Notes: generated by a model not told the origin, from the letters alone. Counted from the first letter of the stretch, positions 15,442 through 49,619 are shown. The stretch is 64,000 nt of DNA from Candidatus Falkowbacteria bacterium RIFOXYD12_FULL_34_57 (GCA_001780285.1 MFGN01000021.1:11122-75121); one strand, 5' to 3'. Made by a program: numbers and translations.

Positions 15442-17340
15442 TTATTTATTAATTGGCAGGGTAAATATGAATGTTGTTCCTACCCCCTCCTTGCTTTCAA
15501 AAGTTATTTCACCACCATGTTTTTCTATAACATTTTTCACTATAAACAACCCAAGACCCGACCCTTCGGTCTGCATGCGAATCACATTGTCCGCCCTAAA
15601 AAATTTAGAAAATAATTTCTTTTGGTCTTCTTTGGGGATACCAACTCCATTGTCTTTTATTTTAATTTTTAAAAAATGAATTCCTACTTCAAAAAAAATC
15701 TCAATTTTACCAAATTCGGGGGTATATTTTACAGCATTCTCCAATAAATTCTGCAGCACCAATCCCATCTTTTGCCTATCCATATATACAAGCGGTATTT
15801 TTGCGGGTTTATTAATAATAAATTTTATACTTTTATTTTTGATTCTTGTCTCTAGGTTATCAATAGTATCCTGCAAGGCATCTTCAAAATTATCTTGCTT
15901 AAAGGAATAGCCGAAACGGCCTTCTTCTATGCGAGATACATTTAACATATCGTTAACCAAACCAATAATTCTTTCATTGCTTTGATAACCCTTAAACAAT
16001 AACTTTTCTTGTTCACTGTTAAGTTTTCCAACATCCCCGTCTAAAACCATCTTAATTACCCATTTAATCGCGGAAAGTGGAGTACGAAGCTGATGAGCGG
16101 CTATAGAAATAAACTCTGATTTGAGTTTATCAATCATTTTTTCTCTCGTCAAATTATAAAAAATCTTCATGATTCCTAATTTCCTTTTCATGTTATCAAT
16201 TACCGGTGCTGTAATAACTTTATAGGTCAATTCTTGGGTACCAAAATTTACAAGAACCTCTTCTTCGTTTGGATTATTGGACTTTATAATCTTGTGGGAT
16301 CTAACCTCGTAATCCTGTTCAATAATATCCACAAAATTATTCATGGAATAATTATCTTTACCGTCTATTTTTTTACCCAAATCAGATCTTATAATTCCAA
16401 AAATTTCTTCTGCTGCCGGGTTAAACAAGCTTAATTTATTTTCTGCATCAATAACTAAAATAGGGTCTATAAAATTAGCAATTACGGCTGAAGTTTTGTT
16501 TCTTTCCTCTAGCGCTCTTCTTCTTGCTTCCTGTAGGTCAGAAAAGGCGCGAATTAATGATTTTTCGCTCTTTTCTAATTCTTTTATTTTAATCTCAAGA
16601 ATCTTGTTGGTTTTTTCTAGTTCCTCATCTTTTTTTTGCAAAATTTTAGAACTTCTATCTATTTCCTTCATCTCTCTTTCTTTAACCTCCTTCTCAACAT
16701 TCATTTTTTCCGCGCTCTCTATTAATGCTTGCTCGCGCGTAGCAAATAATTTAGAACCGTAACCCAAAAAAATAGCTACAATGATATAAAAATTAGAGGT
16801 AACAATAACTGTAATAAGTGAAATAGTCATTCTTTTTAATTCAGCAAACTCCAAACCATTCATAATACGATCTTCAGTAACATTATAAACAATAAAATAA
16901 AAGTATTCCGAAACTACGGAAATATTAACTAAAACAACTGACATTAAAGCAGTAATAATTGCTCCTCTAATTCCAAAAATAATAGATGCGGAAATTATAG
17001 GCAAAAAGAAAAAAACACTTATCAGCGACTTCTCGCCGCTCAAATATAAAACAACCGAAAATACAATCAACTCAAGGGCAATTTGCCCAAAACTAAGCGC
17101 TCTAAGTTTTCCAATCGATTTGGTTTTTTTTACCTCTATTAAAGTATAATAAAAATATGCATTAACATAAATAAAGAACAACAAGAGAATAGAAATTGAA
17201 ATAATAGAAAATTCAATTTTAAACAAACTTACTAAAAAATTACCAAAAACACCAACAACAAAAATAGCCACCATGTAAAACCATCTGGTAGTTATAATCC
17301 ATTCATTAATAGCTATCCGCCTGTCATAACGTAAATCCAT
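15442..17340 (-). CDS. Membrane sensor histidine kinase (multi-TM, PAS-like, HisKA, HATPase_c)
   Basis: H-box SIAAHQLRTPL, N-box LLENAVKYT, G-boxes DNGVGI and GSGLGL. About 6 N-terminal TM helices. Start at MDLRYD is uncertain (the ORF runs to 17385). Confidence 0.88.
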   Translation of the reverse strand: MDLRYDRRIAINEWIITTRWFYMVAIFVVGVFGNFLVSLFKIEFSIISISILLLFFIYVNAYFYYTLIEVKKTKSIGKLRALSFGQIALELIVFSVVLYLSGEKSLISVFFFLPIISASIIFGIRGAIITALMSVVLVNISVVSEYFYFIVYNVTEDRIMNGLEFAELKRMTISLITVIVTSNFYIIVAIFLGYGSKLFATREQALIESAEKMNVEKEVKEREMKEIDRSSKILQKKDEELEKTNKILEIKIKELEKSEKSLIRAFSDLQEARRRALEERNKTSAVIANFIDPILVIDAENKLSLFNPAAEEIFGIIRSDLGKKIDGKDNYSMNNFVDIIEQDYEVRSHKIIKSNNPNEEEVLVNFGTQELTYKVITAPVIDNMKRKLGIMKIFYNLTREKMIDKLKSEFISIAAHQLRTPLSAIKWVIKMVLDGDVGKLNSEQEKLLFKGYQSNERIIGLVNDMLNVSRIEEGRFGYSFKQDNFEDALQDTIDNLETRIKNKSIKFIINKPAKIPLVYMDRQKMGLVLQNLLENAVKYTPEFGKIEIFFEVGIHFLKIKIKDNGVGIPKEDQKKLFSKFFRADNVIRMQTEGSGLGLFIVKNVIEKHGGEITFESKEGVGTTFIFTLPINK

Positions 17341-29497: not shown

Positions 29498-29569
29498 TCC
29501 CGGGTAGCGCAGCGGTAGCGCAGTTGGCTGTTAACCAATTGGTCGTCGGTTCGAATCCGACCCCGGGAG
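29498..29569 (+). tRNA. tRNA-Asn (anticodon GTT)
   Basis: Hand-folded 72-nt cloverleaf: acceptor tcccggg/cccggga, D arm gcgc/gcgc, anticodon stem gttgg/ccaat with loop ctGTTaa, T arm gtcgg-ttcgaat-ccgac. No encoded CCA. Confidence 0.9.
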
Positions 29570-38091: not shown

Positions 38092-39168
38092 ATGAGTCAA
38101 GTAATTAAAAATAAGGATAATAAGTTTGATGTAAATAATAGAAAATACTTAGGATCAAAATATAAATTACTTGACTTTTTGGAGGAAAAAATTACAAAAA
38201 ATTGCAACAAGAATGATAAAAAATTTGATTGCTTTGTAGATATTTTTTCGGGTACAGGGGTAGTTGCTAATCATTTTAGAAAATTTTCAAAAAAAGTTAT
38301 AGCTAATGATATTTTGTATTCTAACTTTGTTATTAACAAAGTTTTTTTAAATTCCACAAAAAAGAACGTTGATTTAGAAAAAGTTGAAAATAAGATTAAA
38401 GAGTTAAATAACTTGAAATCTACAAAAGGATACTGTTATAAAAATTTTGGGAATTCATACTTTACCAAAGAAAATGCCTCATATATTGATTCTATTAGAG
38501 AAAAAATTGAATATTATAAAAAGACGAATAAAGTTACTGAACAAGAATATTTTGTTTTACTTACAAGCCTGATGTTTGCTATTGATAAAATTGCAAATAC
38601 GGTTGGTCAGTATGACGCATTTTTAAAACATATAGGCAAAGAGTCTTATAGTAAAGGAAAGCACTTGATTGATAATAATGTTAATAAAAAGATTTTTTTA
38701 AAAATCCCTATTATTTATTTTGACGGTATTAATGAAGTCTACAATAAAGACGCTAACGAACTTATAAAAGAAATAAAATGTAATGTTTTATATTTGGATC
38801 CGCCTTATAATAGTCGCCAATATGTAGATTGCTATCATGTATTAGAGAATATAATTAGATGGGAAAAACCAAAGCTTTATGGTAAAACAAAAAAATTTGA
38901 GAGAGATAATTTAAAAAGCAAATATTGCAGGAAAACACATTCAGTATACGCATTTGAAGATTTGATTAATAATGCAGACTGCGATCATATATTCTTAAGC
39001 TATAATGACGAGGGAATAATCCCGGATAATGAAATAGAAAGAATTTTAAAAAGTAAAGGTGATTTAAAAATCTATAGCCAAGATTATAATGTCTTTGGAA
39101 ATGGTGCGGGAAGTTCCAAAAAAAGAAAAGTCATAGAACGATTATTTTATTGCAAAGTAAAAAAATAA
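38092..39168 (+). CDS. N6-adenine DNA methyltransferase, Dam/D12 class (alpha-type motif order)
   Basis: 358 aa. N-terminal RKYLGSKYKLL, motif I FVDIFSGTGVV and motif IV LYLDPPYNSRQY. Confidence 0.85.
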   Translation: MSQVIKNKDNKFDVNNRKYLGSKYKLLDFLEEKITKNCNKNDKKFDCFVDIFSGTGVVANHFRKFSKKVIANDILYSNFVINKVFLNSTKKNVDLEKVENKIKELNNLKSTKGYCYKNFGNSYFTKENASYIDSIREKIEYYKKTNKVTEQEYFVLLTSLMFAIDKIANTVGQYDAFLKHIGKESYSKGKHLIDNNVNKKIFLKIPIIYFDGINEVYNKDANELIKEIKCNVLYLDPPYNSRQYVDCYHVLENIIRWEKPKLYGKTKKFERDNLKSKYCRKTHSVYAFEDLINNADCDHIFLSYNDEGIIPDNEIERILKSKGDLKIYSQDYNVFGNGAGSSKKRKVIERLFYCKVKK

Positions 39169-39170
39169 TA

Positions 39171-40412
39171 ATGCAACCCAAAGCTCATCTTTTTGTCGTT
39201 GATTGCGACACAATGCCAATACATATACAGAAAGGATTTTGCGGAATTGTTAAAATAAATCCGACCAATAGAAGAGGGCACAGCAATGTGTCCTTTTACG
39301 GCCAGCTATCTGATCTAATGAACATAAGCGTTGGAGACTTGGTATATTTCTACATGCAAACAAAATCCACTGATAGAAAATTTTTTCAGTTACAAAATCA
39401 GAATGATTTTGAAAAGTTAGGACAAGGCTACTACGGAGTTTTTAGAGTTATTGATAAACCATTTATTAGTGAGCGTGAGGTAAGGGGTGAATTTCCCTTT
39501 GATAATTTTTTTATTTTTGGATCAAGGGACAATGAAAATTATTCTAATTTTCAACAGGAAGAAAATAGATTGCCCATTTTATCAGTTCGCATTCCCATTG
39601 AGCCTATAAATGATTATGAGGATTTAAGAAATAAATTTGTGGATGACAATCAAGCTTATATTGATAAAACTGATGAGGGGCAATTATCTACCTTGCTTTT
39701 TAAAAAAATTAAAAGAAAAGGCGAAGAAAGGAGTATTACGCCTATTTTACCGGAGGAAGCAAGTAAAATTGCAAGATTGATTTTTAAACAGGAAAGAAAA
39801 AATTTTCCCTTGAATATAGGTAGAAATCTTGTAAGAAAACGAGAAGATGAGGAGAATATAAAATTAACTATGAGTTCGCGCGACCGAATAGTTCTCGACG
39901 TTGAAGCCATGCTTGAGGCTTATATATTGAATAATTTAAATAATAGTTTAACTCTCGGGCCCATTGATGATGTGGTGGGTAATTATGACGAGATAGAATT
40001 TTGCGGAAATCAAGTTCAATATGGCATATCGGGGAATAAGGTTGATATATTGCTATTGCATAGAAAAAATATTGCCGGTAATACAAATTATAGATACAGA
40101 GCCACGGTAATGGAACTAAAAAAAGAACGTATTAAATTAGATGATATTGAACAAATAATTGATTATCAAAAATGGATTGCTCAGTTAACAACATTTAATA
40201 ATTTAAAAGCAATTCAACCAATTTTAATTGGTAAGAGACCTTCGGCAAGAATGACAACGAACACAAAAGCAAAAATAAGAGAAAATTTAAACACAATTGA
40301 ACGGATAGGTATTTCTACTCCGAGATTTTTTGAATATTCTATAAATTTTAATAATGATCAGATAACCGATTTAAATTTTCAAGAATTTAACATTAATGAT
40401 TTAATTCAATAA
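39171..40412 (+). CDS. Uncharacterised two-domain protein; C-terminal NucS/DUF91-like PD-(D/E)xK nuclease motif
   Basis: 413 aa. GNKVDILLLHRK...YRATVMELKKERI..DDIEQIIDYQKW matches the ID(L/I)L...v.ELKr....v.Q...Y pattern. The N-terminal ~130 aa are beta-rich (PUA/EVE-like guess). It starts 2 nt after the MTase stop. Confidence 0.5.
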   Translation: MQPKAHLFVVDCDTMPIHIQKGFCGIVKINPTNRRGHSNVSFYGQLSDLMNISVGDLVYFYMQTKSTDRKFFQLQNQNDFEKLGQGYYGVFRVIDKPFISEREVRGEFPFDNFFIFGSRDNENYSNFQQEENRLPILSVRIPIEPINDYEDLRNKFVDDNQAYIDKTDEGQLSTLLFKKIKRKGEERSITPILPEEASKIARLIFKQERKNFPLNIGRNLVRKREDEENIKLTMSSRDRIVLDVEAMLEAYILNNLNNSLTLGPIDDVVGNYDEIEFCGNQVQYGISGNKVDILLLHRKNIAGNTNYRYRATVMELKKERIKLDDIEQIIDYQKWIAQLTTFNNLKAIQPILIGKRPSARMTTNTKAKIRENLNTIERIGISTPRFFEYSINFNNDQITDLNFQEFNINDLIQ

Positions 40413-40416
40413 GTTT

Positions 40417-41595
40417 ATGAAAAATAAAATTTTTAAAATTTGGGTTGATTCTGACGGGGATGTTAATCAAGGTAAATACTTTTTTGAAAATACCGACTTG
40501 AATAAATTAAATTGTTCAATCGAAAGAGTTTATTCAAATAAAACGGATAACTTTGCAAAAAATCCAAAAAAAATACAAGATATGTTGTATTTGGATAAAC
40601 CAGATGTGATAATCACCTATCAAGAGAATGAACAATCGATTGAAATTCCTGTTCTCTCTTTGGAGATTAGTGAGCAAACACCAATGGGACAAAATACTTT
40701 TCAAAGATTTCCGAGAGCAGTAGCTTCAGCAGAGCAAGGGGTTCCTTTTGTAATAATTTTTCCTGAAAAAGATTGGGTGCAGAGAACAAAAAAAGAATCA
40801 AGCGGTTGGGAAATGGCTTCGCCGTTTGTATTTAACGGATTGAAAAAATTATCAGAATTTCACAATATCCCTGTTTTTTCTGTAAACTGGGCGTGTAATG
40901 AAAAAAAGGTTTCGCATAAAGGGTATAAAAGTTACGACACGAAATTTCCGAATATGCCAGATTCGAATTCCGAAGAAATGAAAAAACTTTTCATTTTTAT
41001 AAATTTGTTGATACAAAACACATTAGGCGGTTATCAAACATCTAAATTACTTGAAAACAGGGAAATTAAAGAGCTGGTTGAAGATTTAGACGCAAAAAGA
41101 TTTTCAAGAGGCGGAGATTTCTTAAAAAAAATACCGTCGGCTAGTTCTGGCGGAATAGTTAATACAAAAGAGTTAAAAAATTATATAGAAAAGAGTCCGG
41201 ATATTAAAAAATTTGATACAAGTACATTTCCTGACTACATTAAAGCTCGTGATGAATCATTAATCTTTTATTCCGAAACAAATAACTTTAGGGCTGATCC
41301 CTATACGGGTACTATGCTAGTGTACGATTATTCATTTTGCAGATATGGCAAAGAAAAAACAGGAAGACACAGGAATCTAATAGTGCATTTTCCTAAAATA
41401 AGTTTTAGCGATATCGAATGTAAATATAGTAGTTACTACGAAAGAAGATGTCCTTTCAAGCCTGGCTCAAAACATGATAATCAATACTTGGCCCTGCATT
41501 TAAGGGACGGATGTAAGTTTACGAAAATCAAAGAATTTCGTATTTACTTTTACTTTGCCGATATAATAATTCTAAAAGATGTTATATTATTTTAA
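40417..41595 (+). CDS. Uncharacterised protein with possible PD-ExK-like motif
   Basis: 392 aa. DKPDVIITY...PVLSLEISEQ is the only suggestive motif. No family recognised. Confidence 0.4.
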   Translation: MKNKIFKIWVDSDGDVNQGKYFFENTDLNKLNCSIERVYSNKTDNFAKNPKKIQDMLYLDKPDVIITYQENEQSIEIPVLSLEISEQTPMGQNTFQRFPRAVASAEQGVPFVIIFPEKDWVQRTKKESSGWEMASPFVFNGLKKLSEFHNIPVFSVNWACNEKKVSHKGYKSYDTKFPNMPDSNSEEMKKLFIFINLLIQNTLGGYQTSKLLENREIKELVEDLDAKRFSRGGDFLKKIPSASSGGIVNTKELKNYIEKSPDIKKFDTSTFPDYIKARDESLIFYSETNNFRADPYTGTMLVYDYSFCRYGKEKTGRHRNLIVHFPKISFSDIECKYSSYYERRCPFKPGSKHDNQYLALHLRDGCKFTKIKEFRIYFYFADIIILKDVILF

Positions 41596-41598
41596 TTT

Positions 41599-42063
41599 AT
41601 GAGAGAACAAGAGGTTACGCTTGCAATTGAAAAGTATTTAAGAAAAAAAAATTGGGAAATATTAAGTTTGAATAATCCCTTTTCCGGTAAATCAGTTTGG
41701 ATAAAGCCTATTGGTGGCTTTAGGGGAAAGGGCACCTTGATTCCTGACATTATAGCGCGAAAAGAAAAAATTTATTTGATTGTCGAGTCGTATGAAAAAT
41801 TAAAAATAAAAGATATTGGAAAATTAGAAAAGTATTCTAAACCAGAATACTTAGATTCAATCAAAGAAATTTTTGATGAAGAAAGCCCAGTATTGGTAAA
41901 AGCCATGTCTTATCCGGAGCCTATAAAACTACACGGATATCCAAAAGATTTTATTGTCTTCGGAATTGATAATAATTATGCCGTATCAAGTTATATAGGG
42001 AAAGATAATTATTTTTTTGAAAAAAGAGAATTTATTAATTCAAATAAAAATATTTTTATATAA
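41599..42063 (+). CDS. Uncharacterised small protein with restriction-endonuclease-like motif
   Basis: 154 aa. LIPDIIARKEKIYLIVESYEKLK gives a (P)D...E..EK arrangement. Confidence 0.4.
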   Translation: MREQEVTLAIEKYLRKKNWEILSLNNPFSGKSVWIKPIGGFRGKGTLIPDIIARKEKIYLIVESYEKLKIKDIGKLEKYSKPEYLDSIKEIFDEESPVLVKAMSYPEPIKLHGYPKDFIVFGIDNNYAVSSYIGKDNYFFEKREFINSNKNIFI

Positions 42064-42064
42064 T

Positions 42065-42928
42065 ATGAACAAAGATAAAAAAGAAATATTCGATGAGAAC
42101 GGAAAAAGTAGAGGATTTTATTCTGAAAAAAATCAGATAAATGAATTAACCGGCAAAGAATGGCAGTATTGGAGTAAGTCCGTCATAACAAAGCAGTATC
42201 CTTTTAATTTTCAGCACAAACTTAGAAATGAACATGGGGGTCAAAAACCACCCGAATTATGTGCTGATTTAATTAAAGTTTTCACTAAAGAAAAGATGAA
42301 TATTCTTGATCCCTTTGCGGGCGTTGGCGGAACACTATTCGGAGCTAGTTTATGTAATAGAAAAGCAAAGGGAATAGAAATTAATTCAAAATGGACGAAG
42401 ATATATGACAAGGTATGTAAGCTAGAAAAGATAAAAAAACAAAAAATGATCATCGGCGATAGCAAAAAAATTCTCAAGAATGAAAAGAAGAATTGTTTTG
42501 ATATGATACTAACAGATGTTCCGTATTGGGATATGGATAAAGCAGAAAAATCAAAAAATAAATTTAAAAAGGTAGGAGAAATCTCCAAAGACAATAAAAG
42601 AAGTAAATTGTCAGAATTTAATAATTTTAATAATAAAGAACAATCAAAACAAGAATGGCTAGATGAGATGAAAGAAATATTTACACTTTGCTACCCAGTA
42701 TTAAAAAAAGGTAGGTATTTAGTTGTTTTTATCGGCGATATGTATAGAAATGGAAGATATCATTTTTTATCAAACGATCTTGCGAGAGTTTTGGAGGATG
42801 TTGGTTTTGTTCCAAAGGCAAATATAATATGGTATGATGTATCAAATCGTCTACATATATATGCTTATTGTTACCAATACGTTCCTAGTATGATTCATCA
42901 GAATATTTTAGTTTTTAGAAAAGAGTAG
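42065..42928 (+). CDS. DNA methyltransferase (N4/N6 family) with atypical motif IV
   Basis: About 287 aa from MNKDKKE. HGGQKPPELC, motif I LDPFAGVGGT, then ILTDVPYWDM (a D-x-P-Y variant) and LKKGRYLVVFIGD. Starts 1 nt after the previous stop (the ORF track gives 42017). Confidence 0.7.
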   Translation: MNKDKKEIFDENGKSRGFYSEKNQINELTGKEWQYWSKSVITKQYPFNFQHKLRNEHGGQKPPELCADLIKVFTKEKMNILDPFAGVGGTLFGASLCNRKAKGIEINSKWTKIYDKVCKLEKIKKQKMIIGDSKKILKNEKKNCFDMILTDVPYWDMDKAEKSKNKFKKVGEISKDNKRSKLSEFNNFNNKEQSKQEWLDEMKEIFTLCYPVLKKGRYLVVFIGDMYRNGRYHFLSNDLARVLEDVGFVPKANIIWYDVSNRLHIYAYCYQYVPSMIHQNILVFRKE

Positions 42929-42945
42929 TTATTATTAGTCAAAAA

Positions 42946-42973
42946 AGTTCGGAAGCTGTCCAGGTACGCGAGC
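42946..42973 (+). repeat. tRNA-3'-end-like junction motif A
   Basis: agttcggaagctgtccaggtacgcgagc. 27/28 identical to 43850-43877. Followed by terminator hairpin 42986-43018. Confidence 0.8.
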
Positions 42974-43018
42974 CCTATTGAACAGAAAAAACTTATCTAA
43001 AATTAGATAAGTTTTTTT

Positions 43019-43822
43019 GTGTTTTATATACAGAGGTCTTTCGGATTCGAACTTTTTAATGTTTTTTGGTATAATTTGTTTATTAACTGCAAAAATATCG
43101 AATTCTCAACATCACAAAAAGAAATAAAAAGAAGAAAAAAGGCATTTATATCTTTATGCATATTTTTTGGTGTTGGATTATTGTTTACATTATTATTCTT
43201 CAATTATCAAATTTCTTTCGGAATCGTATATATGTTATTCGGAGTATTGTTACTGACTGGAATTTTAACTTTTAGATTCTTGTCAAATTTTGCAAAAAAT
43301 ATTTTATTTATCGATAATAACAAAATTATATTAACTAACTCAAAAAATTCATCAGCAATTAATTTGTGTGAGGTTTATAAGATAAGGATAAAAAGAAGAA
43401 CGAATGGAGCAATCAGAGAAATCTATATATGGTCGAAGAACGGAAAGCCTTTTTTTATTAGCGCTTTTGAAAACGACTTTGATAGAATAGAAAAAATAAT
43501 TATCGATGGCATAGACAAAGACGTATTGATAAAAGAAGTTGTTGAGCCGCTTAATTTTGACCATTTTTTATTTTATCCTATCTTTGGATTATGCACTGGG
43601 GTTTTATCTGCTTTATTTTTTAATACGATATTTAATGCGAATATTCAGATAATCAATATCGCTCTTATTATTGCCTGCATATATGCTTTTGTCCTTGGAA
43701 TATTTTTTATTTTGAAAAAACCGATGTTTTCAAGAAGCGCGAAAAAGAATGCGATTGCTGATTATATTTTTGGAGCAATTTTGATTTTCTTCTCTATTGT
43801 TATTTTCTTAATAGGAATGTAG
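43019..43822 (+). CDS. Hypothetical multi-pass membrane protein
   Basis: 267-aa ORF with 5-6 hydrophobic helices. Start uncertain. Confidence 0.5.
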   Translation: MFYIQRSFGFELFNVFWYNLFINCKNIEFSTSQKEIKRRKKAFISLCIFFGVGLLFTLLFFNYQISFGIVYMLFGVLLLTGILTFRFLSNFAKNILFIDNNKIILTNSKNSSAINLCEVYKIRIKRRTNGAIREIYIWSKNGKPFFISAFENDFDRIEKIIIDGIDKDVLIKEVVEPLNFDHFLFYPIFGLCTGVLSALFFNTIFNANIQIINIALIIACIYAFVLGIFFILKKPMFSRSAKKNAIADYIFGAILIFFSIVIFLIGM

Positions 43823-43849
43823 ATTTAAATATTTTTTATAAACTAACAT

Positions 43850-43877
43850 AGTTCGGAAGCTGTCCAGGTATGCGAGC
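43850..43877 (+). repeat. tRNA-3'-end-like junction motif B
   Basis: agttcggaagctgtccaggtatgcgagc, followed by hairpin 43884-43919. Confidence 0.8.
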
Positions 43878-44017
43878 AAACAAAAGAGGTAATGTTATCA
43901 TAATATTACCTCTTTTTGTATTATATCAATTTTTCAAAAACCTTATAATCAAAGACCTGACCCCTTTATACTGCTTGGATATTGAATTTTTTAGTATAAA
44001 CTGTTAAAATAATCTAT

Positions 44018-44767
44018 ATGAAAGAAGTTATAAATAAACAAAATTATTACGAGAACTATGGATTTCTTGATAGCGATCTTAACGCTATGCATGATCACTT
44101 AAAATCTATGGGTCTACCAGATGATATTTTAGAAATGGTAAATGAAAAAGAAAGTGCTAATATTTTAATTCTGGGATCAGCTACAACTCAAAATCTTAAC
44201 GGAGTGAGCAAAATTGATAAATATTTTCGACCCGATAAAGTAGAACAGGATAAAGTAATTATTATAGACAAAAATTTTTACCCACTTAGTAAACACAAAA
44301 AAGATATAGATTGGATCGAAGGAAAAGATGGATGGACCAATCAACCAAAATCTACTCCCCAATTCCCCTACCCTAAATTTGAACTCGCTCAAGCAGATAT
44401 GTCACAACTACCTTTCGCTGATCACAAAATTGATATAGTAATTTCTGATTATACTCTTAATTTTTTAGATGACTTAAATCAGGTTGATAAAACTTTTCAG
44501 GAAATATCGTCCTCTCTATCTGAAAATGGAATTGCTCTAATTTCTTTTAGAGGGAATGAAAAATATCCACCAGGACAAGATAATCAGATCAATAATGAAA
44601 ATGATAAACAAGAGCACACACTAAGAGGAGGAGTAACGGTACATTATTTTCCATTAACAACTTATTTTAACATAGCTAAAAAATATAATTTAGAAGCTAT
44701 AAAAACAAATTCAATAGGCACTGATACCTTTGCGGTATTTATTAAAAAAGAAACCAAAAAAAATTAA
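44018..44767 (+). CDS. Class I SAM-dependent methyltransferase-like protein
   Basis: 249 aa. ILILGSATTQN (motif I-like) and IDIVISDYTLNFL (post-II/III-like). Substrate unknown. Confidence 0.5.
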   Translation: MKEVINKQNYYENYGFLDSDLNAMHDHLKSMGLPDDILEMVNEKESANILILGSATTQNLNGVSKIDKYFRPDKVEQDKVIIIDKNFYPLSKHKKDIDWIEGKDGWTNQPKSTPQFPYPKFELAQADMSQLPFADHKIDIVISDYTLNFLDDLNQVDKTFQEISSSLSENGIALISFRGNEKYPPGQDNQINNENDKQEHTLRGGVTVHYFPLTTYFNIAKKYNLEAIKTNSIGTDTFAVFIKKETKKN

Positions 44768-44788
44768 ATCTATTTATATAATAAAACT

Positions 44789-44816
44789 GGTTCGGACTTT
44801 ACTCGGTAAAGGGAGC
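44789..44816 (+). repeat. tRNA-3'-end-like junction motif C
   Basis: ggttcggactttactcggtaaagggagc, followed by hairpin 44825-44849. Confidence 0.6.
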
Positions 44817-44988
44817 TCTATAGAAACCGTCAATCTTGGCGGTTTTTTTGTTATGAAATCCTGAAAAAGTGGGTACCCAGGGGCTGGATTCGAACCAATA
44901 AAAATATTGATGTAATATTAGTGAACCATTTTATAAAAAACAGGTGTTGCACCTCGGAGTTGAATGTACCTAAAAAAGTAAGTTCTTT

Positions 44989-45027
44989 TTAATATTGGGA
45001 TTATGCTTTATTTAATACTGGGATTAT
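44989..45027 (+). promoter_or_regulatory. 16-nt direct repeat pair upstream of the small zinc-ribbon operon
   Basis: ttaatattgggattat (44989-45004) and ttaatactgggattat (45012-45027): 15/16 identical, 23-nt register. Confidence 0.4.
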
Positions 45028-45072
45028 ATGCAAAAAACGGTTAATTTTGAATTACACTTAAAGGAGGTTTAA

Positions 45073-45330
45073 ATGTGTACTGAATATAAAGAAATTTCTT
45101 TGGCACTAAAAGGAAAAATACCATTTTCTGATAAAGTAGAAATTTCGTGTGAATGTGGTAAAAACTTTACCGGAAAATTAAAACAAAATCTTCCCTTATT
45201 AGATTGCCCCGAATGTTTAAGAAGATATCAATTTTATCAAGAAGAAAAAAAATATAAAATAAAAATTCATCGCAGATTAACTGATAATGAACAATTTGAA
45301 GCAGAGTGTGCAGAAGGATTACACAAATAA
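45073..45330 (+). CDS. Small zinc-ribbon protein (paralogue of the 58966-59343 N-terminal domain)
   Basis: 85 aa. SD aaaggagg upstream. SCECG...CPEC..RYQF motif. Confidence 0.6.
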   Translation: MCTEYKEISLALKGKIPFSDKVEISCECGKNFTGKLKQNLPLLDCPECLRRYQFYQEEKKYKIKIHRRLTDNEQFEAECAEGLHK

Positions 45331-45355
45331 AATAAATAACAGAAGGAGATATTCA

Positions 45356-45691
45356 ATGAACTTATCAGGGATTAAAAATGAAGGTATTTGGAGAAATGAC
45401 GGATATGAAGAAGAATATGAATTCCTTAAGGATTTAGGAGTTCAGGCTCTAGCAGTGGAACATATTACAGTCGCATTTAAGGACGATAAAAGTTATTCAA
45501 CGAGCTTTGAGATGAGACATGTTGTGGACTCTGAAGGAAATCGTGGATTTATGTGTTTTGTGAGCAAAAGATTGCTCTATATGGATACATATCGTCAAGG
45601 TACGACACAAGAAGTATATGACGAAGTGAAAAGTATGGGCGAAACCATGCAACAGGAAGAACTTCGGCGGTCATGGCTTAACCTGAATTGA
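45356..45691 (+). CDS. Hypothetical protein
   Basis: 111 aa from MNLSGIK with SD aaggag 7 nt upstream (the ORF track starts at 45287). Confidence 0.5.
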   Translation: MNLSGIKNEGIWRNDGYEEEYEFLKDLGVQALAVEHITVAFKDDKSYSTSFEMRHVVDSEGNRGFMCFVSKRLLYMDTYRQGTTQEVYDEVKSMGETMQQEELRRSWLNLN

Positions 45692-45757
45692 GCATAACTA
45701 GTCTTTATCAAAAAATTTAAAAAATAAACATAATAAACAAAAAAGGAGACCAACAAT

Positions 45758-45940
45758 ATGAAATGCTTTCAATGTAAAAAAGAAATTACTAATGAGAGTA
45801 AAATGATTCTTATAAGTGCAGATGGTGATTTTGTCTGCGGACAAAATTGTAAGGATAAATATGAAACAGAAAAAGCACATTTCTTTAATGAAATTGTGCA
45901 TTCACCCGAAAAAACTGAATCATATTTACTGGGAAGATAA
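45758..45940 (+). CDS. Small CxxC...CxxxC protein
   Basis: 60 aa. SD aaaggag upstream. Terminator at 45956-45985. Confidence 0.5.
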   Translation: MKCFQCKKEITNESKMILISADGDFVCGQNCKDKYETEKAHFFNEIVHSPEKTESYLLGR

Positions 45941-45997
45941 TATATTCAAAAATTAAGCGACACGGAATAAACCTGTCGCTTTTTATTTCTTTAAAAC

Positions 45998-46025
45998 AGT
46001 TCTAATTCGCGTAAGAGTCGGGAGC
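45998..46025 (+). repeat. tRNA-3'-end-like junction motif D
   Basis: agttctaattcgcgtaagagtcgggagc, followed by hairpin 46035-46056. Confidence 0.6.
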
Positions 46026-46158
46026 ATTCTTAAGACCGCCAATTTTGGCGGTTTTTATATTGTGAAATTTAGAAAAAACGGGTGCCCCAGGACTGGCCCC
46101 GTAAAATAGCTTCGCTGTCACGGGGTAAAATTCGAACCAATTGTGCTATAATACAAAT

Positions 46159-46671
46159 ATGTTAACAAAAGAACAAAAAATCTGGATAAATCATTTAAGC
46201 AATACTGATATCATCAAAGTAATTCCTTATAATCCTAAAACAAAGGATGTTTTTAGGATAATCAAAAAAGATCTCAAAAAAATATTGGGTAATGTACGGA
46301 TATCTCATCGTGGTTCTACTGCTCTAAAAATATCTGGTCAGGGTGAAATAGACTTATACATTCCTACTACAATAAAAGATTTTAATAGGTATTTGGATAA
46401 ACTAACAAAGCACCTTGGAAAACCTGGAAGTGTTTATCCTCTGGAAAGAGTGAGATTTGTAAAATATATAGACGATATTAAAATAGAAATATTTATAATA
46501 AATAAAAATAACTCGGGATGGAAAAATTCCATTAAATTTGAACAAGCCCTAAGAAAAAATAAAGGATTGCTAAATAAGTATGAAAAATTAAAACAGAGTT
46601 GTGATGGTCTGTCAGTCAAAAAATATTACGCTAAAAAAACAGAGTTCATCAATTACGTCCTATCTACATAA
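46159..46671 (+). CDS. GrpB-family (nucleotidyltransferase-fold) protein
   Basis: About 170 aa. ISHRGSTALKISGQGEIDLYIP matches the GrpB hiGSTav.g..ak..iDi pattern. TGcTATAAT lies 7 nt before the ATG. Confidence 0.6.
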   Translation: MLTKEQKIWINHLSNTDIIKVIPYNPKTKDVFRIIKKDLKKILGNVRISHRGSTALKISGQGEIDLYIPTTIKDFNRYLDKLTKHLGKPGSVYPLERVRFVKYIDDIKIEIFIINKNNSGWKNSIKFEQALRKNKGLLNKYEKLKQSCDGLSVKKYYAKKTEFINYVLST

Positions 46672-46782
46672 AAAATTTCGGACATCCTCGCATACTATTT
46701 TTGACAAAAAGTATAACATATGTTATACTTTTTTGTTGGTCTTTTCCCTAAATTCTTTAAACCCATATAAAAGGAGAAAACT

Positions 46783-47064
46783 ATGCTTAAATATTTTTGC
46801 ACTTCCCTGTATTCTGAAAATTTAACCTGGGAAGATTTTTTTCCTGTTAACGACGACAACCTTCCTAGGGTTACCGTTGACATCGAAAAAAAAGGAAAAA
46901 GGGTTGAAGCCATTAAATTTTCGCGAGATAAAGATGACGGGTGGTATGACGCCTACATTCCCAGCTTCACGGTTGATAACGTGAAAAGTGTTCTCGCCCA
47001 AATCAACGGCACAACTCCCGAAGAAATCGAAATCGATTGGCAGGGTACTATACAAGCCTGCTAG
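46783..47064 (+). CDS. Hypothetical protein
   Basis: 93 aa. SD aaaggag upstream. No family recognised. Confidence 0.45.
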   Translation: MLKYFCTSLYSENLTWEDFFPVNDDNLPRVTVDIEKKGKRVEAIKFSRDKDDGWYDAYIPSFTVDNVKSVLAQINGTTPEEIEIDWQGTIQAC

Positions 47065-47081
47065 CCAAACCTCGGGAGCAA
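47065..47081 (+). repeat. tRNA-Asn acceptor-end-like motif F (outermost)
   Basis: Contains ACCTCGGGAGCAACA versus tRNA-Asn ACCCCGGGAGCAAAA (13/15). Followed by hairpin 47084-47116. Confidence 0.55.
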
Positions 47082-47273
47082 CAAAAAAGGTAACATTATC
47101 ACAATGTTACCTTTTTATTTTATCGTATAGGAATTTTCCCTCTAACCCCATATCTATTATATATCTTCATCTTGTGGGGGATCTCCCGAAGGGGGACTAT
47201 TTGTTACTGTTTATAAAAATAAAAGTGATTAATATTAGATATACTGTTATTTACCACCCCTGCGGGGGACCTC

Positions 47274-47294
47274 AAAAAGCTCGAAGAGCTTTTC
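47274..47294 (-). terminator. Terminator after the S8-like gene
   Basis: aaagctc-gaa-gagcttt with a T-run on the minus strand. Confidence 0.55.
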
Positions 47295-47390
47295 TTGTAT
47301 TTTATTAACTTTATAAAATCTTATCATTAAAGACTTGAGGAATCATTATAAAGTGCTAAATGTTTTGTAAGTTGTTTTTAGGGATTGGAT

Positions 47391-49619
47391 TTAATTATTA
47401 CAATTTAGACATGCCGTATATTGCGCATCACACACATTTACACAATTCCCGTATTGCGTGGCGCATGAAGTATAAAGACAATCTTCCGTTGATCGGTAGC
47501 AAGTGTCCCGGCAGGTATTATATTTGCGAGTACAGGCATTTTGATCACAGCCTCCCGAATCAGGCTCAACGGACGGTGGCTCTTTATCCGGTTTACAGGT
47601 ACCACCTTCCGCAATACAGACAAAATGAGAACCGGCGGGACAGCTTTGCCAGAAAGTACCGTTGCATAATTCACTGCCTACCGGCATACAGGAAGGGTCG
47701 CCCGAGGGCGGGCAATAAAATTTTTCGCCGTTTTGGCACGGAGCCCAGTATTTGCCGTTGCATGATTCACGATTCAAAGGAACGCAAGTGGCGTCGCCCG
47801 ATGGCGGACAATAAAACTCCTGATCACTTGGGCACGGACCCCATTTTTTACCGTTGCATTCAAGGCCTTTTGGTTGGGCCGCTTGAGTATCTATATTTGT
47901 TTGACTGGCGGTTGGCGCAGTTTTGGTTTCTTGCTTTGGCGCTGTTTGTTTTGGCGCGGTCTTTGTTTCCGGTGGCGGTGTTGTTTTTATTTCTTGATTC
48001 GTAGACGGCAACTCCTGTTCAACTGTTTCTTTTTGGCATTCTCGGGCCACATCTACACAGAACATGCCGCAAAACTTTTTACCGGCAGGACAGATGGAAC
48101 AAGTACCGGGTTTGCGCAGTCCGCAAGAACCTCCCGGCTTCAAACAGTAAACATTAGAATTACAACATTCGGCATTGGTAGGAATACAACTATTATAACA
48201 AGCTTGAAGACCATAGGGACAGACCGCTTGAGTTAATAAATTTCGAATTTTTTTAGCATCGCTGAAGCGATTAGCTTGCCACACTTTTTCTGTTTCCGCC
48301 CAAGCTTGCGCCGCCGCCACAGATGTTCCCGCACTATTTTCCGGAATCTCCTTCATAATCACATTTGAGCCGTGATTGGAATACTTGGCTGGCTGTCCGT
48401 TTTTCTCCACGCCATAAAAATAAACCTGATTTTCCGCAAATAAATTCAAAAGCATGAGCGAAGACATGTCAATTCCAGCGCAATCAAGTATTGATCCGCC
48501 CTTGTCGGCCAAACAAGCTCCATTACCGGCAGCCTGGCTGATTACCACGTTGCCTTTTTTCGACCACTCCGATGACTCAACAACATGTAAAAGACCTTTG
48601 GTGAAAGATTCCCACTGGGTCATGGCCCATGAATTGGAATCGGCGCCGTTTTCTTTGTCAAAAATTTCAGAGTTTTGAGTTATGGGCATAAGCGCCAGCG
48701 ATATGTTTACAGCTACTTGCTGTCGATTCGTTTGCGCGCCGGCTAAAACCATTGCCAGCGCCGCATAAACCCTATCCGCCGATGAACAATATTTTTCACC
48801 GCATTTAACACTGCTGACATCAATTTGCAGAACTGGTCCCTTGTTGCCCATCGCCTCGCGCACACCATTAACCATATAACCGTGATTATCTTTAAAAATA
48901 TCGATTTGAACCACGATAATGCCGGCATCAGGATCAGGACTTTTGAGCATAGCGGCTGTTAAATTTTCGGTGGCATTATTGGTATCAGTCAGGTCAACAA
49001 AACTATCACCGGCTTCAACAACTACAAAATTGGGTTCGACGCTCAAAACAAAATCTTTATTATTTACAGCCGCGATAACTGTCTCGATATTTTCCGCAAC
49101 TTCCACAAAATAATAACCGAATGTCGGAATCCGCGTCAGCACCTTGCCACCGAACGGCAATATCAGATTTTCAATTTCTTCGACGCTTGTTTTTGGGTCA
49201 ACGAATATATTGGCTTGCCTCGGGAACAAAGCAATCATTTCTCCGCTCGGCATGACGATCATTTCCGATTCTGGCATTGATCCGTTATAAATTACCGCAT
49301 CCTCAAATAAACTAACCCGAAAAAGAGTAGAGGTATCGGAAAGATATCCGACTATCGGGACACCAATGAATATTGTCAACATCAACACCATCTTTTTTAA
49401 AATTTTATGTCCAGTCAACAAACAAAGTATGAGATATGAACAAATCACCAGAACAAAAGAAAAAAGAAAAGTGGCAATATATACGCCCCTATCGTTAAAA
49501 CCCAAATAATCATCATTTATCCAAATAACGAAGAAACTCAAAAAAAAGAAACCCAAAACAGGTTTCCAAATCTTGGGTCTTTGATCTTTTTTATTATCAA
49601 GATCGATTCTTTTACCCAT
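47391..49619 (-). CDS. Membrane-anchored subtilase (S8)-like protein with C-terminal Cys-rich repeats
   Basis: 742 aa with N-terminal TM helices. Ser motif SAGTSVAAAQAW, His candidate NHGYMVNG, Asp candidate IVVQIDIF. TKTAPKQ linker. Three ~31-aa repeats CNGK.W.PC....(E/K)FYCPPSGD..C.P. Confidence 0.6.
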   Translation of the reverse strand: MGKRIDLDNKKDQRPKIWKPVLGFFFLSFFVIWINDDYLGFNDRGVYIATFLFSFVLVICSYLILCLLTGHKILKKMVLMLTIFIGVPIVGYLSDTSTLFRVSLFEDAVIYNGSMPESEMIVMPSGEMIALFPRQANIFVDPKTSVEEIENLILPFGGKVLTRIPTFGYYFVEVAENIETVIAAVNNKDFVLSVEPNFVVVEAGDSFVDLTDTNNATENLTAAMLKSPDPDAGIIVVQIDIFKDNHGYMVNGVREAMGNKGPVLQIDVSSVKCGEKYCSSADRVYAALAMVLAGAQTNRQQVAVNISLALMPITQNSEIFDKENGADSNSWAMTQWESFTKGLLHVVESSEWSKKGNVVISQAAGNGACLADKGGSILDCAGIDMSSLMLLNLFAENQVYFYGVEKNGQPAKYSNHGSNVIMKEIPENSAGTSVAAAQAWAETEKVWQANRFSDAKKIRNLLTQAVCPYGLQACYNSCIPTNAECCNSNVYCLKPGGSCGLRKPGTCSICPAGKKFCGMFCVDVARECQKETVEQELPSTNQEIKTTPPPETKTAPKQTAPKQETKTAPTASQTNIDTQAAQPKGLECNGKKWGPCPSDQEFYCPPSGDATCVPLNRESCNGKYWAPCQNGEKFYCPPSGDPSCMPVGSELCNGTFWQSCPAGSHFVCIAEGGTCKPDKEPPSVEPDSGGCDQNACTRKYNTCRDTCYRSTEDCLYTSCATQYGNCVNVCDAQYTACLNCNN

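What the first reader, a model, noticed from the sequence alone, without database searches (positions are those of the whole stretch)
42946..47116. Array of gene cassettes, each closed by a tRNA-3'-end-like motif plus a terminator hairpin
After six consecutive plus-strand genes or operons the same junction recurs. It begins with (A/G)GTTC(G/T)(G/A)A, has a 10-17 nt variable part, and ends in (G)GAGC. A further 5-15 nt leads to an unrelated strong hairpin plus T-run. The copies are 42946-42973 and 43850-43877 (27/28 identical, 904 bp apart, enclosing one membrane-protein gene), then 44789-44816, 45998-46025, a weak copy near 46675-46696, and 47065-81. The real tRNA-Asn end has exactly this layout (GGTTCGAATCCGACCCCGGGAGC, then hairpin 29584-29607). 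The outermost copy matches the acceptor end 13/15. One reading is serial site-specific insertions at tRNA-Asn, each pushing an older tRNA 3' end and its terminator outward. Another is a cassette-capture array that is integron-like in logic. No IntI or attC is present, and a serine recombinase is the only recombinase nearby.
Basis: partly seen in the sequence, partly recalled or inferred. Interest (0 to 1): 0.72.

Follow-up and report, generated by a model that had tools for sequence, protein, structure and literature searches.

The report
Serine-integrase attachment-site scars between stacked gene cassettes
The repeated "tRNA-end-like" motif is real, but it is the mobile-element half of a serine integrase's attachment site, left behind as elements and small integrase-less cassettes piled up downstream of the tRNA-Asn gene of a Candidatus Falkowbacteria genome.

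Summary
J1 (42947), J2 (43851), J3 (44790) and J4 (45999) all read GTTCKRA-N14-KSGAGC followed by a terminator. J5 and J6 are only fragments.

The motif is not a decayed tRNA end. Its spacing is always 14 nt, against 9 nt in tRNA-Asn.

Comparison with 119 Patescibacteria tRNA-Asn loci and 38 metagenome contigs identifies it. A large serine recombinase (LSR) gene abuts tRNA-Asn or tRNA-Gln in many genomes, with its stop codon inside the tRNA, exactly as at 29531-31138. The same LSR-proximal sequence is joined, at the same nucleotide (GAGC), to a tRNA end or to this motif.

With GA as the centre, GTTCGAATC lies at bp 11-19 in the tRNAs and GTTCGGAAG at bp 16-24 in the motif. That 5-bp shift is the published attB/attP hallmark of serine integrases.

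So the junctions are attP-left-arm/crossover scars, and each following terminator belongs to the neighbouring unit's leader. The array is a tandem accretion of an LSR/inovirus-like element plus LSR-less cassettes. Site quality decays with distance from the tRNA.

This is a new variant of a known kind, closest to SCC composite islands and tycheposon islands. An active, integron-like capture system is possible but unproven. No cassette polymorphism was found in this population.

The parts
29498..29570 (+). tRNA-Asn(GTT). Its 3' end 29549-29570 (GTTCGAATCCGACCCCGGGAGC) is the B-type arm of the occupied attachment site (attL).
   Evidence: ARAGORN and Rfam. The same 3' end abuts an LSR gene in 22 of 119 genome loci.
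29567..29570 (+). GAGC core with the inferred crossover dinucleotide GA.
   Evidence: It is the joint at which the LSR-proximal arm meets tRNA-Asn, tRNA-Gln or motif A. It is also the mirror centre of conserved T13/A36.
29571..29607 (+). P' arm (AAAATCGGACAAG...) plus the hairpin that now terminates the tRNA. It lies inside the 3' end of the LSR reading frame.
   Evidence: The N6-GGAC/GAAC pattern is conserved in occupied loci.
29531..31138 (-). Large serine recombinase, 535 aa, with its stop codon 36 nt inside the tRNA.
   Evidence: Pfam Resolvase + Recombinase + Zn_ribbon_recom. RVSS catalytic motif, and tail LPGSDSNRRPIG* encoded by the tRNA complement. Same geometry in 22 other genomes.
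31644..37704 (-). Inovirus-like module (Rep ORF2/G2P, Zot-like ATPase, 537-aa protein and others), G+C 0.40-0.51.
   Evidence: Synteny with LSR elements in L140, L152, L156, L164, L165, L168, L171, L173 and L177.
38092..42928 (+). Type II restriction-modification operon (two methyltransferases, two weak REase-like proteins, one 154-aa protein). Probably cargo of the LSR element.
   Evidence: No attP-arm-like site lies between it and the phage module.
42947..42973 (+). J1: attP-type left arm plus core (GTTCGGAAGCTGTCCAGGTACGCGAGC). Inferred right end of the LSR element.
   Evidence: A 37-nt copy at about 95% identity occurs in L050 and L085 with other cargo. By analogy, the LSR element in L171 ends in such a motif.
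42974..43075 (+). Leader of cassette 1: P'-like N6-GAACAG, terminator about 42985-43018, GGATTCGAAC box 43043-43052, TGGTATAAT promoter 43067-43075.
   Evidence: The leader is conserved together with the gene in L014.
43019..43822 (+). Cassette 1 cargo: membrane protein of unknown family.
   Evidence: Homologues sit in other arrays (L013, L014).
43851..43877 (+). J2: attP-type left arm plus core, 27/28 identical to J1. Terminator at 43882-43916.
44018..44767 (+). Cassette 2 cargo: SAM-dependent methyltransferase.
44790..44816 (+). J3: attP-type left arm plus core. Terminator 44822-44847. GGATTCGAAC box 44886-44895.
45073..45940 (+). Cassette 3 cargo: three small ORFs (85, 111/134 and 60 aa).
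45999..46025 (+). J4: weaker attP-type left arm plus core. Terminator 46032-46055. TTCGAAC box 46131-46137.
   Evidence: (D1).
46141..46671 (+). Cassette 4 cargo: GrpB-family protein.
46676..46735 (+). J5: decayed junction. The left arm remains, the GAGC core is deleted, and it is followed by a TTGACAAAAAGTATA... hairpin of the tRNA-Asn-trailer family.
   Evidence: Compare the L014 tRNA trailer, L065 and L109, and L158 and L170.
46783..47064 (+). Cassette 5 cargo: 93-aa protein.
47065..47116 (+). J6: outermost junction. It has only the CGGGAGC core plus a terminator (47084-47116) that is 84% identical to the J2 terminator.
   Evidence: (D5).

Best explanation
The junction motif is the left (P) arm and crossover core of the attP site of a family of large serine recombinases. 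These recombinases integrate inovirus-like elements into the 3' end of tRNA-Asn, and of tRNA-Gln, in Patescibacteria.

The recombinase reads three features: an outer box (GTTCGAA-like), an inner TCC, and a GAGC core that holds the crossover dinucleotide. In the tRNA, which supplies the attB left arm, the outer box lies at bp 11-19 from the centre. In the element, it lies at bp 16-24.

Integration puts the element's P' arm and its own terminator directly after the intact tRNA. It leaves P arm-GAGC at the far end, fused to whatever trailer used to follow the tRNA.

Repeated insertions at the tRNA-proximal end produced the present order: tRNA-Asn, then a 13.4-kb element (LSR, phage module, R-M operon) ending at J1, then progressively older LSR-less units ending at J2, J3, J4, J5 and J6.

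Each small unit is a self-contained transcription unit: a leader with P'-like arm, terminator, TTCGAAC box and promoter, then the cargo gene(s), then the P arm.

What is shown: the motif's geometry, its linkage to the LSR, the position of the joint, its restriction to the region downstream of the tRNA, and the decay gradient.

What is inferred: the exact crossover, the order of events, and that the LSR-less units are non-autonomous relatives moved by an LSR supplied in trans rather than mere deletion remnants.
For: 1. Fixed N14 spacing in J1-J4 against N9 in the tRNA.
2. In 119 Patescibacteria tRNA-Asn loci, GTTC..A-N14-..GAGC occurs 27 times downstream on the tRNA strand, 5 times on the other strand, and 0 times in 463 kb upstream.
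3. 22 loci carry an LSR gene ending 36 nt inside the tRNA, as in the window.
4. A metagenome scan for the LSR-proximal arm alone shows it joined at GAGC to tRNA-Asn, to tRNA-Gln, or directly to motif A, including next to intact LSR genes in L164, L165 and L168.
5. In L171 an LSR-Rep-Zot element syntenic with window 31.5-35 kb lies upstream of the next motif A on that contig, consistent with motif A being the element's right end.
6. Box positions of 11-19 and 16-24 with centre GA match the structure-based serine-integrase model (PMC3783163).
7. Among 56 distinct copies, the positions not imposed by the search pattern, T13 C14 C15 and A36, are conserved and mirror each other about G24|A25.
8. 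Matrix scores fall with distance from the tRNA: 35.9, 36.7, 22.2, 15.5, below 0, below 0.
9. In L014 the membrane-protein cassette, with the same leader, sits one small unit away from tRNA-Asn and has a different upstream neighbour.
10. LSR-less leaders share about 66 nt with LSR 3' ends and then diverge at one common point, in many contigs with different cargo.
Against: - Canonical serine integrases recombine only attP with attB, so repeated insertion at an already occupied tRNA (attL) needs a non-canonical property or an intermediate step. The paper abstract listed (PMC3783163) states that other pairings of attachment sites do not recombine.
- The right-hand arms show only weak symmetry and no clear outer box.
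- No empty site, circular form or cassette presence/absence polymorphism was found. 23 contigs of this population share one gene order.
- J5 and J6 are not recognisable as P arms.
- No P arm lies between the high-G+C phage module and the low-G+C R-M operon, so taking J1 as the element's end is an inference.
- Arrays occur in genomes with no LSR in the 8 kb sampled, and in L098 the cargo genes are antisense to the tRNA.
- The inverted GGATTCGAAC box is unexplained.
Confidence: 0.78

Rival explanations
1. An active LSR-based analogue of an integron. Site identity would be set by the left arm only, so the tRNA always behaves as attB and every junction as attP. The integrase could then excise any proximal block as a circle and re-insert circles at the tRNA. 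Single-gene, integrase-less cassettes would be captured and shuffled in trans.
For: - The cassette ends are conserved while the cargo varies: the J1 arm recurs in L050 and L085, and LSR-less leaders recur.
- Median unit size is about 1.1-1.3 kb over 44 units.
- The right arms lack a discriminating outer box.
- One left context carries three different occupants in L146, L159 and L166/L173.
Against: - There is no cassette polymorphism in 23 contigs of this population.
- No circular contigs were found.
- The sites decay with distance from the tRNA, which suggests a passive record rather than shuffling.
- Each cassette has its own promoter, and there is no shared array promoter.
- Left-arm-only site identity is untested and contrary to characterised serine integrases.
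Confidence: 0.3
2. The small units are merely deletion remnants of full-length LSR prophages that each integrated once. Nothing is mobilised in trans.
For: - LSR-less leaders retain the last ~66 nt of an LSR gene.
- In L152 and L171 an intact element is followed by an LSR-less unit.
- There is a decay gradient.
Against: - The same truncation point and leader recur with many different cargoes and P arms, which indicates a propagating lineage rather than independent decay.
- The units are tidy promoter-gene-arm modules.
- It still needs repeated insertion at an occupied site.
Confidence: 0.3
3. The motifs are decayed partial copies of the tRNA-Asn 3' end, left by classical tyrosine-integrase integrations.
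For: - They resemble GTTCGAA...GGGAGC plus terminator.
- True tRNA-Asn 3'-end copies do occur in other genomes (L042, L043, L051, L092, L112).
Against: - Spacing is always 14, never 9, in 56 copies.
- The middle has its own conserved TCC register.
- No tyrosine recombinase is seen in the window or its flanks.
- The motif abuts LSR genes.
Confidence: 0.03
4. The motif is an RNA-level element in 3' UTRs, either a tRNA-like processing or stability signal or part of a terminator module.
For: - It sits between stop codon and terminator in the window.
- A long-range stem with the downstream box is predicted.
Against: - There is no covariation. The only predicted pairs are between invariant bases.
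- No Rfam family matches.
- In L098 the cargo genes are on the other strand.
- The motif replaces a tRNA end next to LSR genes.
Confidence: 0.03

Closest known systems
Staphylococcal cassette chromosome composite islands (SCCmec / ACME / psiSCC at orfX-rlmH, Ccr large serine recombinases)
   Same: - Large serine recombinases integrate elements at the 3' end of a conserved gene without inactivating it.
- Newer elements insert between the gene and older ones.
- The units are separated by short repeated att-derived sequences.
- Recombinase-less units sit in the same tandem (PMC3026799).
   Different: - The target here is a tRNA (Asn or Gln), not rlmH.
- The hosts are Patescibacteria.
- The autonomous element is inovirus-like.
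- Many units are single genes with a conserved leader.
- The repeat is an attP arm with the 5-bp-shifted box, not an ~18-nt direct repeat.
- Relatedness to Ccr was not tested.
Tycheposon islands next to tRNA genes in Prochlorococcus
   Same: A streamlined genome carries tRNA-proximal islands built by successive integrations that push older elements outward, together with degraded remnants (bioRxiv 10.1101/2020.12.28.424599).
   Different: Tycheposons mostly use tyrosine recombinases, and their separators are true partial tRNA copies. Here the separators are attP arms of a serine integrase.
Phage serine integrases with defined att sites (Listeria A118/LI, phiC31, Bxb1)
   Same: - The domain architecture is the same.
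- The attP and attB half-sites share an outer zinc-ribbon-domain motif shifted by 5 bp (bp 16-24 against 11-19).
- The central dinucleotide is common to both sites (PMC3783163).
   Different: Characterised integrases give single insertions and do not use occupied sites. In this family attP lies inside the integrase gene's 3' end, so the protein tail changes with integration state.
Integrons
   Same: It is a directional array of mostly single-gene units, each closed by a recombination site, next to a fixed entry point.
   Different: - There is no IntI tyrosine recombinase.
- There is no attC (RYYYAAC...GTTRRRY) structure.
- The cassettes carry their own promoters.
- The recombinase gene lies on the mobile element, not on the platform.

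Membership tests
Large serine recombinase (serine integrase) attachment-site system | Recombinase with Resolvase catalytic domain, Recombinase domain and zinc-ribbon domain, plus a catalytic serine | tested here: met
   Pfam PF00239, PF07508 and PF13408 on 29531-31138. RVSS motif. Weak match to the TP901-1 integrase catalytic domain.
Large serine recombinase (serine integrase) attachment-site system | attP and attB half-sites share an outer 7-9 bp motif placed 5 bp nearer the centre in attB (bp 11-19 against 16-24) | tested here: met
   tRNA-Asn and tRNA-Gln have GTTCGAATC at 19-11. Motif A has GTTCGGAAG at 24-16. TCC lies at 12-10 in both. The rule is from PMC3783163. The centre is inferred from symmetry, not mapped.
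Large serine recombinase (serine integrase) attachment-site system | Partner sites share the central crossover dinucleotide, and the joints fall at that point | tested here: met
   GAGC is invariant. The same P' sequence is joined immediately after GAGC to tRNA-Asn, tRNA-Gln or motif A.
Large serine recombinase (serine integrase) attachment-site system | The enzyme catalyses attP x attB recombination at these sites | not testable with these tools
   This needs an in vivo or in vitro recombination assay.
Integron | IntI-type tyrosine recombinase adjacent to the array | tested here: not met
   No Phage_integrase family appears among the window ORFs I scanned (29.5-51 kb) or the called genes with precomputed Pfam hits over window ~10-64 kb and 10 kb beyond its right end.
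Integron | attC sites: imperfect palindromes bounded by RYYYAAC and GTTRRRY | tested here: not met
   There are 0 such core pairs in 42900-47400 on either strand. The conserved ends here are GTTCKRA...GAGC.
SCC-type composite island | LSR-driven tandem of units, including recombinase-less ones, downstream of the 3' end of a conserved gene and separated by att-derived repeats | tested here: met
   Window layout. Compare PMC3026799.
SCC-type composite island | ccr-family recombinases and an rlmH (orfX) target | tested here: not met
   The target is tRNA-Asn or tRNA-Gln. No comparison with Ccr proteins was made.
Partial tRNA gene copies (classical att repeats of tRNA-integrating elements) | Sequence collinear with the tRNA from the crossover to the 3' end (T-loop to end spacing of 9) | tested here: not met
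   Spacing is 14 in all copies. No match to the tRNA 3' 21-mer with up to 3 mismatches occurs elsewhere in the window.

The most novel reading that the evidence does not exclude
Patescibacteria carry a serine-integrase counterpart of the integron. tRNA-Asn and tRNA-Gln serve as permanent entry sites, and integrase-less single-gene cassettes with a conserved leader and attP arm are captured, stacked and possibly re-excised by an integrase supplied by inovirus-like elements. This would be a main route by which these tiny genomes gain accessory genes.
Probability: 0.3. Interest if true: 0.85.

Novelty: new variant of a known kind. Interest (0 to 1): 0.62.

Why it matters
- It explains a puzzling repeat mechanistically. 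It also shows that the structure-derived rule for telling attP from attB (a 5-bp shift of the outer motif) can be read directly from natural sequence in uncultured bacteria.
- It identifies tRNA-Asn and tRNA-Gln as hot spots where Candidate Phyla Radiation genomes accumulate accessory genes, here a restriction-modification system, methyltransferases and small unknown proteins. The vehicle is a widespread family of integrase-bearing filamentous-phage-like elements and their integrase-less companions.
- It supplies many natural attB/attP pairs for a new serine-integrase clade.
- If the stacking is active, it would be a natural multi-cassette assembly system.

Tried and rejected
- **attC / integron:** no core-site pairs and no tyrosine recombinase.
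- **Known RNA family or conserved RNA fold:** nothing above noise in Rfam, and no covariation.
- **tRNA 3'-end duplicate at the prophage's far end:** none with up to 3 mismatches.
- **P arm between the phage module and the R-M operon (37.7-38.1 kb):** none.
- **Free attP in viral contigs:** two pattern scans found nothing. The one related IMG/VR contig (L139) is cut inside the integrase gene.
- **Empty site or alternative occupants in the window's own population:** every look-up returned the same gene order.
- **Circular contigs:** no terminal overlaps.
- **Shared cassettes among the fetched arrays:** too few data. Only near-duplicate contigs matched.
- **Downstream TTCGAAC box as a -35 element:** its spacing to the -10 is inconsistent (18 nt in J1 and J3, 10 nt in J4), so I dropped this.
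- **Downstream box as a right-arm motif brought close by hairpin extrusion:** the arithmetic fits one subfamily, but this is pure speculation.

Full report
**Source and layout**

The window comes from Candidatus Falkowbacteria bacterium RIFOXYD2_FULL_34_120 (GCA_001778325.1), a Rifle aquifer genome. The same sequence occurs in several ENA, JGI and Logan assemblies.

- tRNA-Asn lies at 29498-29570.
- On the opposite strand, a 535-aa large serine recombinase (LSR: Resolvase + Recombinase + zinc ribbon, RVSS catalytic motif) runs from 31138 to 29531. Its stop codon is 36 nt inside the tRNA.
- An inovirus-like module follows (Rep ORF2/G2P, Zot-like protein), with raised G+C of 0.40-0.51.
- Next comes a low-G+C type II restriction-modification operon at 38092-42928.
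- Then come five small plus-strand units: a membrane protein, a SAM methyltransferase, three small ORFs, a GrpB protein and a 93-aa protein.

**Checking the observation**

The pattern GTTCKRA-N(8-20)-GAGC has 6 matches against 0.66 expected. They are the tRNA end, J1-J4, and one intragenic hit at 16731(-) that I take as chance.

J1 and J2 are 27/28 identical and 904 bp apart. Terminator-like hairpins follow each junction.

- The variable part is exactly 14 nt in J1-J4, whereas the tRNA has 9.
- The hairpins are related in pairs: J2/J6 are 84% identical and J3/J4 are homologous over at least 77 nt.
- J5 and J6 are only fragments. J5 keeps the left part but has lost GAGC. J6 has only CGGGAGC.

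There is also an inverted GGATTCGAAC box about 72 nt after GAGC in J1, J3 and J4. It can pair with the start of the motif.

**Relatives of one cassette**

Homologues of the membrane protein led to three informative contigs.
- In L013 (50% identity) the gene is followed by AGTTCGAA-N14-GGGAGC and a terminator.
- L014 (66% identity) starts with tRNA-Asn and its terminator. A 115-aa gene follows, then AGTTCTGA-N14-TGGAGC, then a terminator, box and promoter almost identical to the right half of J1, and then the membrane gene. The leader therefore travels with the gene, while the motif to its left belongs to the preceding unit. In that genome the array begins directly at the tRNA.
- In L015 the motif is absent, and homology to the window starts just after the box.

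**The motif is tied to tRNA-Asn across the phylum**

A scan of one genome per species with the tRNA-Asn 3' half returned 119 loci from many Patescibacteria classes.

The loose pattern GTTC..A-N14-..GAGC occurs 27 times downstream of the tRNA on its strand, 5 times on the other strand, and never in 463 kb upstream. Several loci have two to four copies 0.8-2.3 kb apart.

**Link to the recombinase**

tblastn with the window's LSR shows that 22 of these loci have an LSR gene ending 36 nt inside tRNA-Asn, as in the window, even at about 30% protein identity. The integrase gene's 3' end therefore carries one arm of the attachment site. Integration rebuilds the tRNA's surroundings.

**The decisive test**

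I scanned the metagenome collection for the LSR-proximal arm alone, placing no constraint on what precedes it.

The sequence to the left, always joined immediately after GAGC, falls into three classes:
- The tRNA-Asn end.
- A tRNA-Gln end (GTTCGAATCCCTGTCCCCGAGC, again with N9 spacing).
- Motif A with N14 spacing, in L142/174, L152/155, L158, L162/167, L163, L164, L165/168, L170 and L171.

In L164, L165 and L168 the motif abuts an intact LSR gene. In L171 an LSR-Rep-Zot element syntenic with window 31.5-35 kb lies upstream of the next motif A on the contig, about 6.8 kb from the LSR, consistent with motif A being that element's right end.

Motif A thus occupies the place of the tRNA end in the non-tRNA partner. 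It is the attP left arm plus the crossover core.

**Geometry**

Among 56 distinct copies, positions that my search pattern did not impose are conserved: T13 in 47/56, C14 in 41/56, C15 in 35/56 and A36 in 45/56. T13 and A36 mirror each other about G24|A25, the GA of GAGC.

Counting from that centre:
- GTTCGAATC lies at bp 19-11 in both tRNAs.
- GTTCGGAAG lies at bp 24-16 in motif A.
- TCC lies at 12-10 in all of them.

Rutherford et al. 2013 derived from the LI integrase-DNA structure that the zinc-ribbon-domain motif sits at bp 16-24 in attP and is shifted 5 bp towards the centre (11-19) in attB, while the recombinase-domain contacts stay in register (PMC3783163). The match is exact. It explains both why the motif looks like a tRNA end and why it is 5 nt longer.

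**Reading the window**

- The tRNA site is attL: a B arm, GAGC, and a P' arm with a hairpin.
- The first P arm downstream is J1, which gives a 13.4-kb element comprising the LSR, the phage module and the R-M operon. No P arm lies between the phage module and the R-M operon, so I treat the R-M operon as cargo. This is an inference.
- J2-J4 close LSR-less units.
- The right side of each junction begins with a P'-like N6-GAAC/GAAA/AGAC and a terminator, like the arm next to LSR genes.
- The J5 right flank belongs to the TTGACAAAAGTAT... hairpin family. That family directly follows tRNA-Asn in L014, L065 and L109, and follows motif A in L158 and L170.
- Matrix scores, trained without the window, fall with distance from the tRNA: 35.9, 36.7, 22.2, 15.5, then below zero for J5 and J6. 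This is the pattern expected if new units enter next to the tRNA and old junctions decay.

**Nature of the small units**

In the metagenome contigs, many LSR-less units share about 66 nt with the 3' end of LSR genes. They then diverge at one common point (GTTCGGAAG|TTTTAACAAT...) into a conserved leader, yet they carry different cargo and different P arms.

The J1/J2 arm recurs as a 37-nt match at about 95% identity in two other genomes (L050, L085) with unrelated cargo.

One left context, a tRNA-Asn 3' half, carries three different occupants in L146, L159 and L166/L173.

These points favour a propagating, non-autonomous lineage over random decay. They do not prove mobilisation in trans.

Forty-four units delimited in the fetched loci range from 0.3 to 5.8 kb, with a median of about 1.1-1.3 kb.

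**What does not fit or remains open**

- Characterised serine integrases do not use attL as a target, so stacking at an occupied tRNA needs explanation. The right arms here show little beyond the inner A36 and no clear outer box. Site identity might therefore reside in the left arm only. That is speculation.
- I found no empty site, no circular contig and no cassette polymorphism. 23 contigs of this population have the same order.
- The inverted box is enriched after junctions (16/41 against 3/41 in controls) and after tRNA-Asn (15/96 against 3/96). It is not universal and has no assigned role.

**Rejected alternatives**

- Integron attC and IntI are absent.
- No Rfam family matches and motif A shows no covariation.
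- True partial tRNA copies would have N9 spacing, and none occur in the window.

**Comparison with known systems**

- **SCC composite islands of staphylococci.** This is the closest mechanistic analogue. Large serine recombinases target the 3' end of a conserved gene, units including recombinase-less psiSCC lie in tandem separated by att-derived repeats, and newer units sit nearest the gene (PMC3026799).
- **Tycheposon islands of Prochlorococcus.** This is the closest ecological analogue. They are tRNA-proximal islands built by successive integrations, but mostly with tyrosine recombinases and true partial tRNAs.
- **Literature check.** A search of the held literature found inoviruses reported in the Candidate Phyla Radiation, some with serine recombinases (PMC6813254), and general surveys of islands in Patescibacteria (PMC12455944). 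None describe this att-site architecture or these arrays.

**Verdict**

The feature is a new variant of a known kind.

Noticed in passing
window 29531-29570 (and L140, L164, L165, L173): The integrase reading frame runs through the attachment site, so its last 12-20 residues depend on the partner. At tRNA-Asn the tail is ...LLPGSDSNRRPIG*, at tRNA-Gln it is ...LLGDRDSNPD*, and next to motif A it takes other forms.
   Followed up: partly
L140, L145, L150, L153, L156, L160, L172, L175, L177: The same integrase family also occupies tRNA-Gln (CTG and TTG anticodons). Its 3' end shares GTTCGAATCC and GAGC with tRNA-Asn but differs in between.
   Followed up: partly
L042, L043, L051, L092, L095, L112 (downstream of tRNA-Asn): A second kind of repeat unit carries a true copy of the tRNA-Asn end (AATCCGACCCTGGGAGC). 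It is preceded by GGATKMGAAGTTTAT and a short G+C-rich hairpin, as if a hairpin had been inserted in the T-loop. This may be the att arm of another element family.
   Followed up: no
window 43043-43052, 44886-44895, 46131-46137; many tRNA-Asn trailers: An inverted, imperfect copy of the tRNA-Asn 3' end (for example TTACCCTGGGCAGGATTCGAACC in L029) lies 50-60 nt after the tRNA terminator and after many junctions. J1 and J3 share the exact GAGC-N72-TTCGAAC spacing. Its function is unknown.
   Followed up: partly
window 47117-47390: A 270-bp non-coding stretch between the array and the 742-aa gene holds several G+C-rich hairpins (GGGGGATCTCCCGAAGGGGGAC, CCACCCCTGCGGGGGACC, AAAAGCTCGAAGAGCTTTT). 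Contigs from two other samples end at window positions 47035 and 47167.
   Followed up: no
window 44978-45027: Two tandem 23-nt repeats (TAATAYTGGGATTAT core) lie upstream of the 85-aa gene. A third partial copy is at 47367-47391.
   Followed up: no
window 38092-42928: The restriction-modification operon has two methyltransferases (D12 class and N4/N6 class) and two proteins with only weak restriction-enzyme similarity. The arrangement recalls heterodimeric type II systems.
   Followed up: partly
window 30000-38000: Cumulative GC skew reaches its minimum near 31-32 kb, and the gene strand switches from minus to plus across the island. This could reflect a replication landmark or simply the inserted DNA.
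   Followed up: no
L015 143-205 and 1621-1683: A related genome lacks motif A around the membrane-protein gene. Instead it has its own ~60-nt terminator-like direct repeat flanking a two-gene unit.
   Followed up: no
L098 (Candidatus Peregrinibacteria), downstream of tRNA-Asn: Four motif-A copies lie within 6 kb. The intervening 300-400-aa genes are on the strand opposite the tRNA, and a 37-nt GTTCGAAC-N21-GTTCGAAC palindrome follows each terminator.
   Followed up: no
window 16731-16757 (-): A motif-A-like match (GTTCTAAATTATTTGCTACGCGCGAGC, score 23) lies inside a histidine-kinase gene. It is probably chance.
   Followed up: partly
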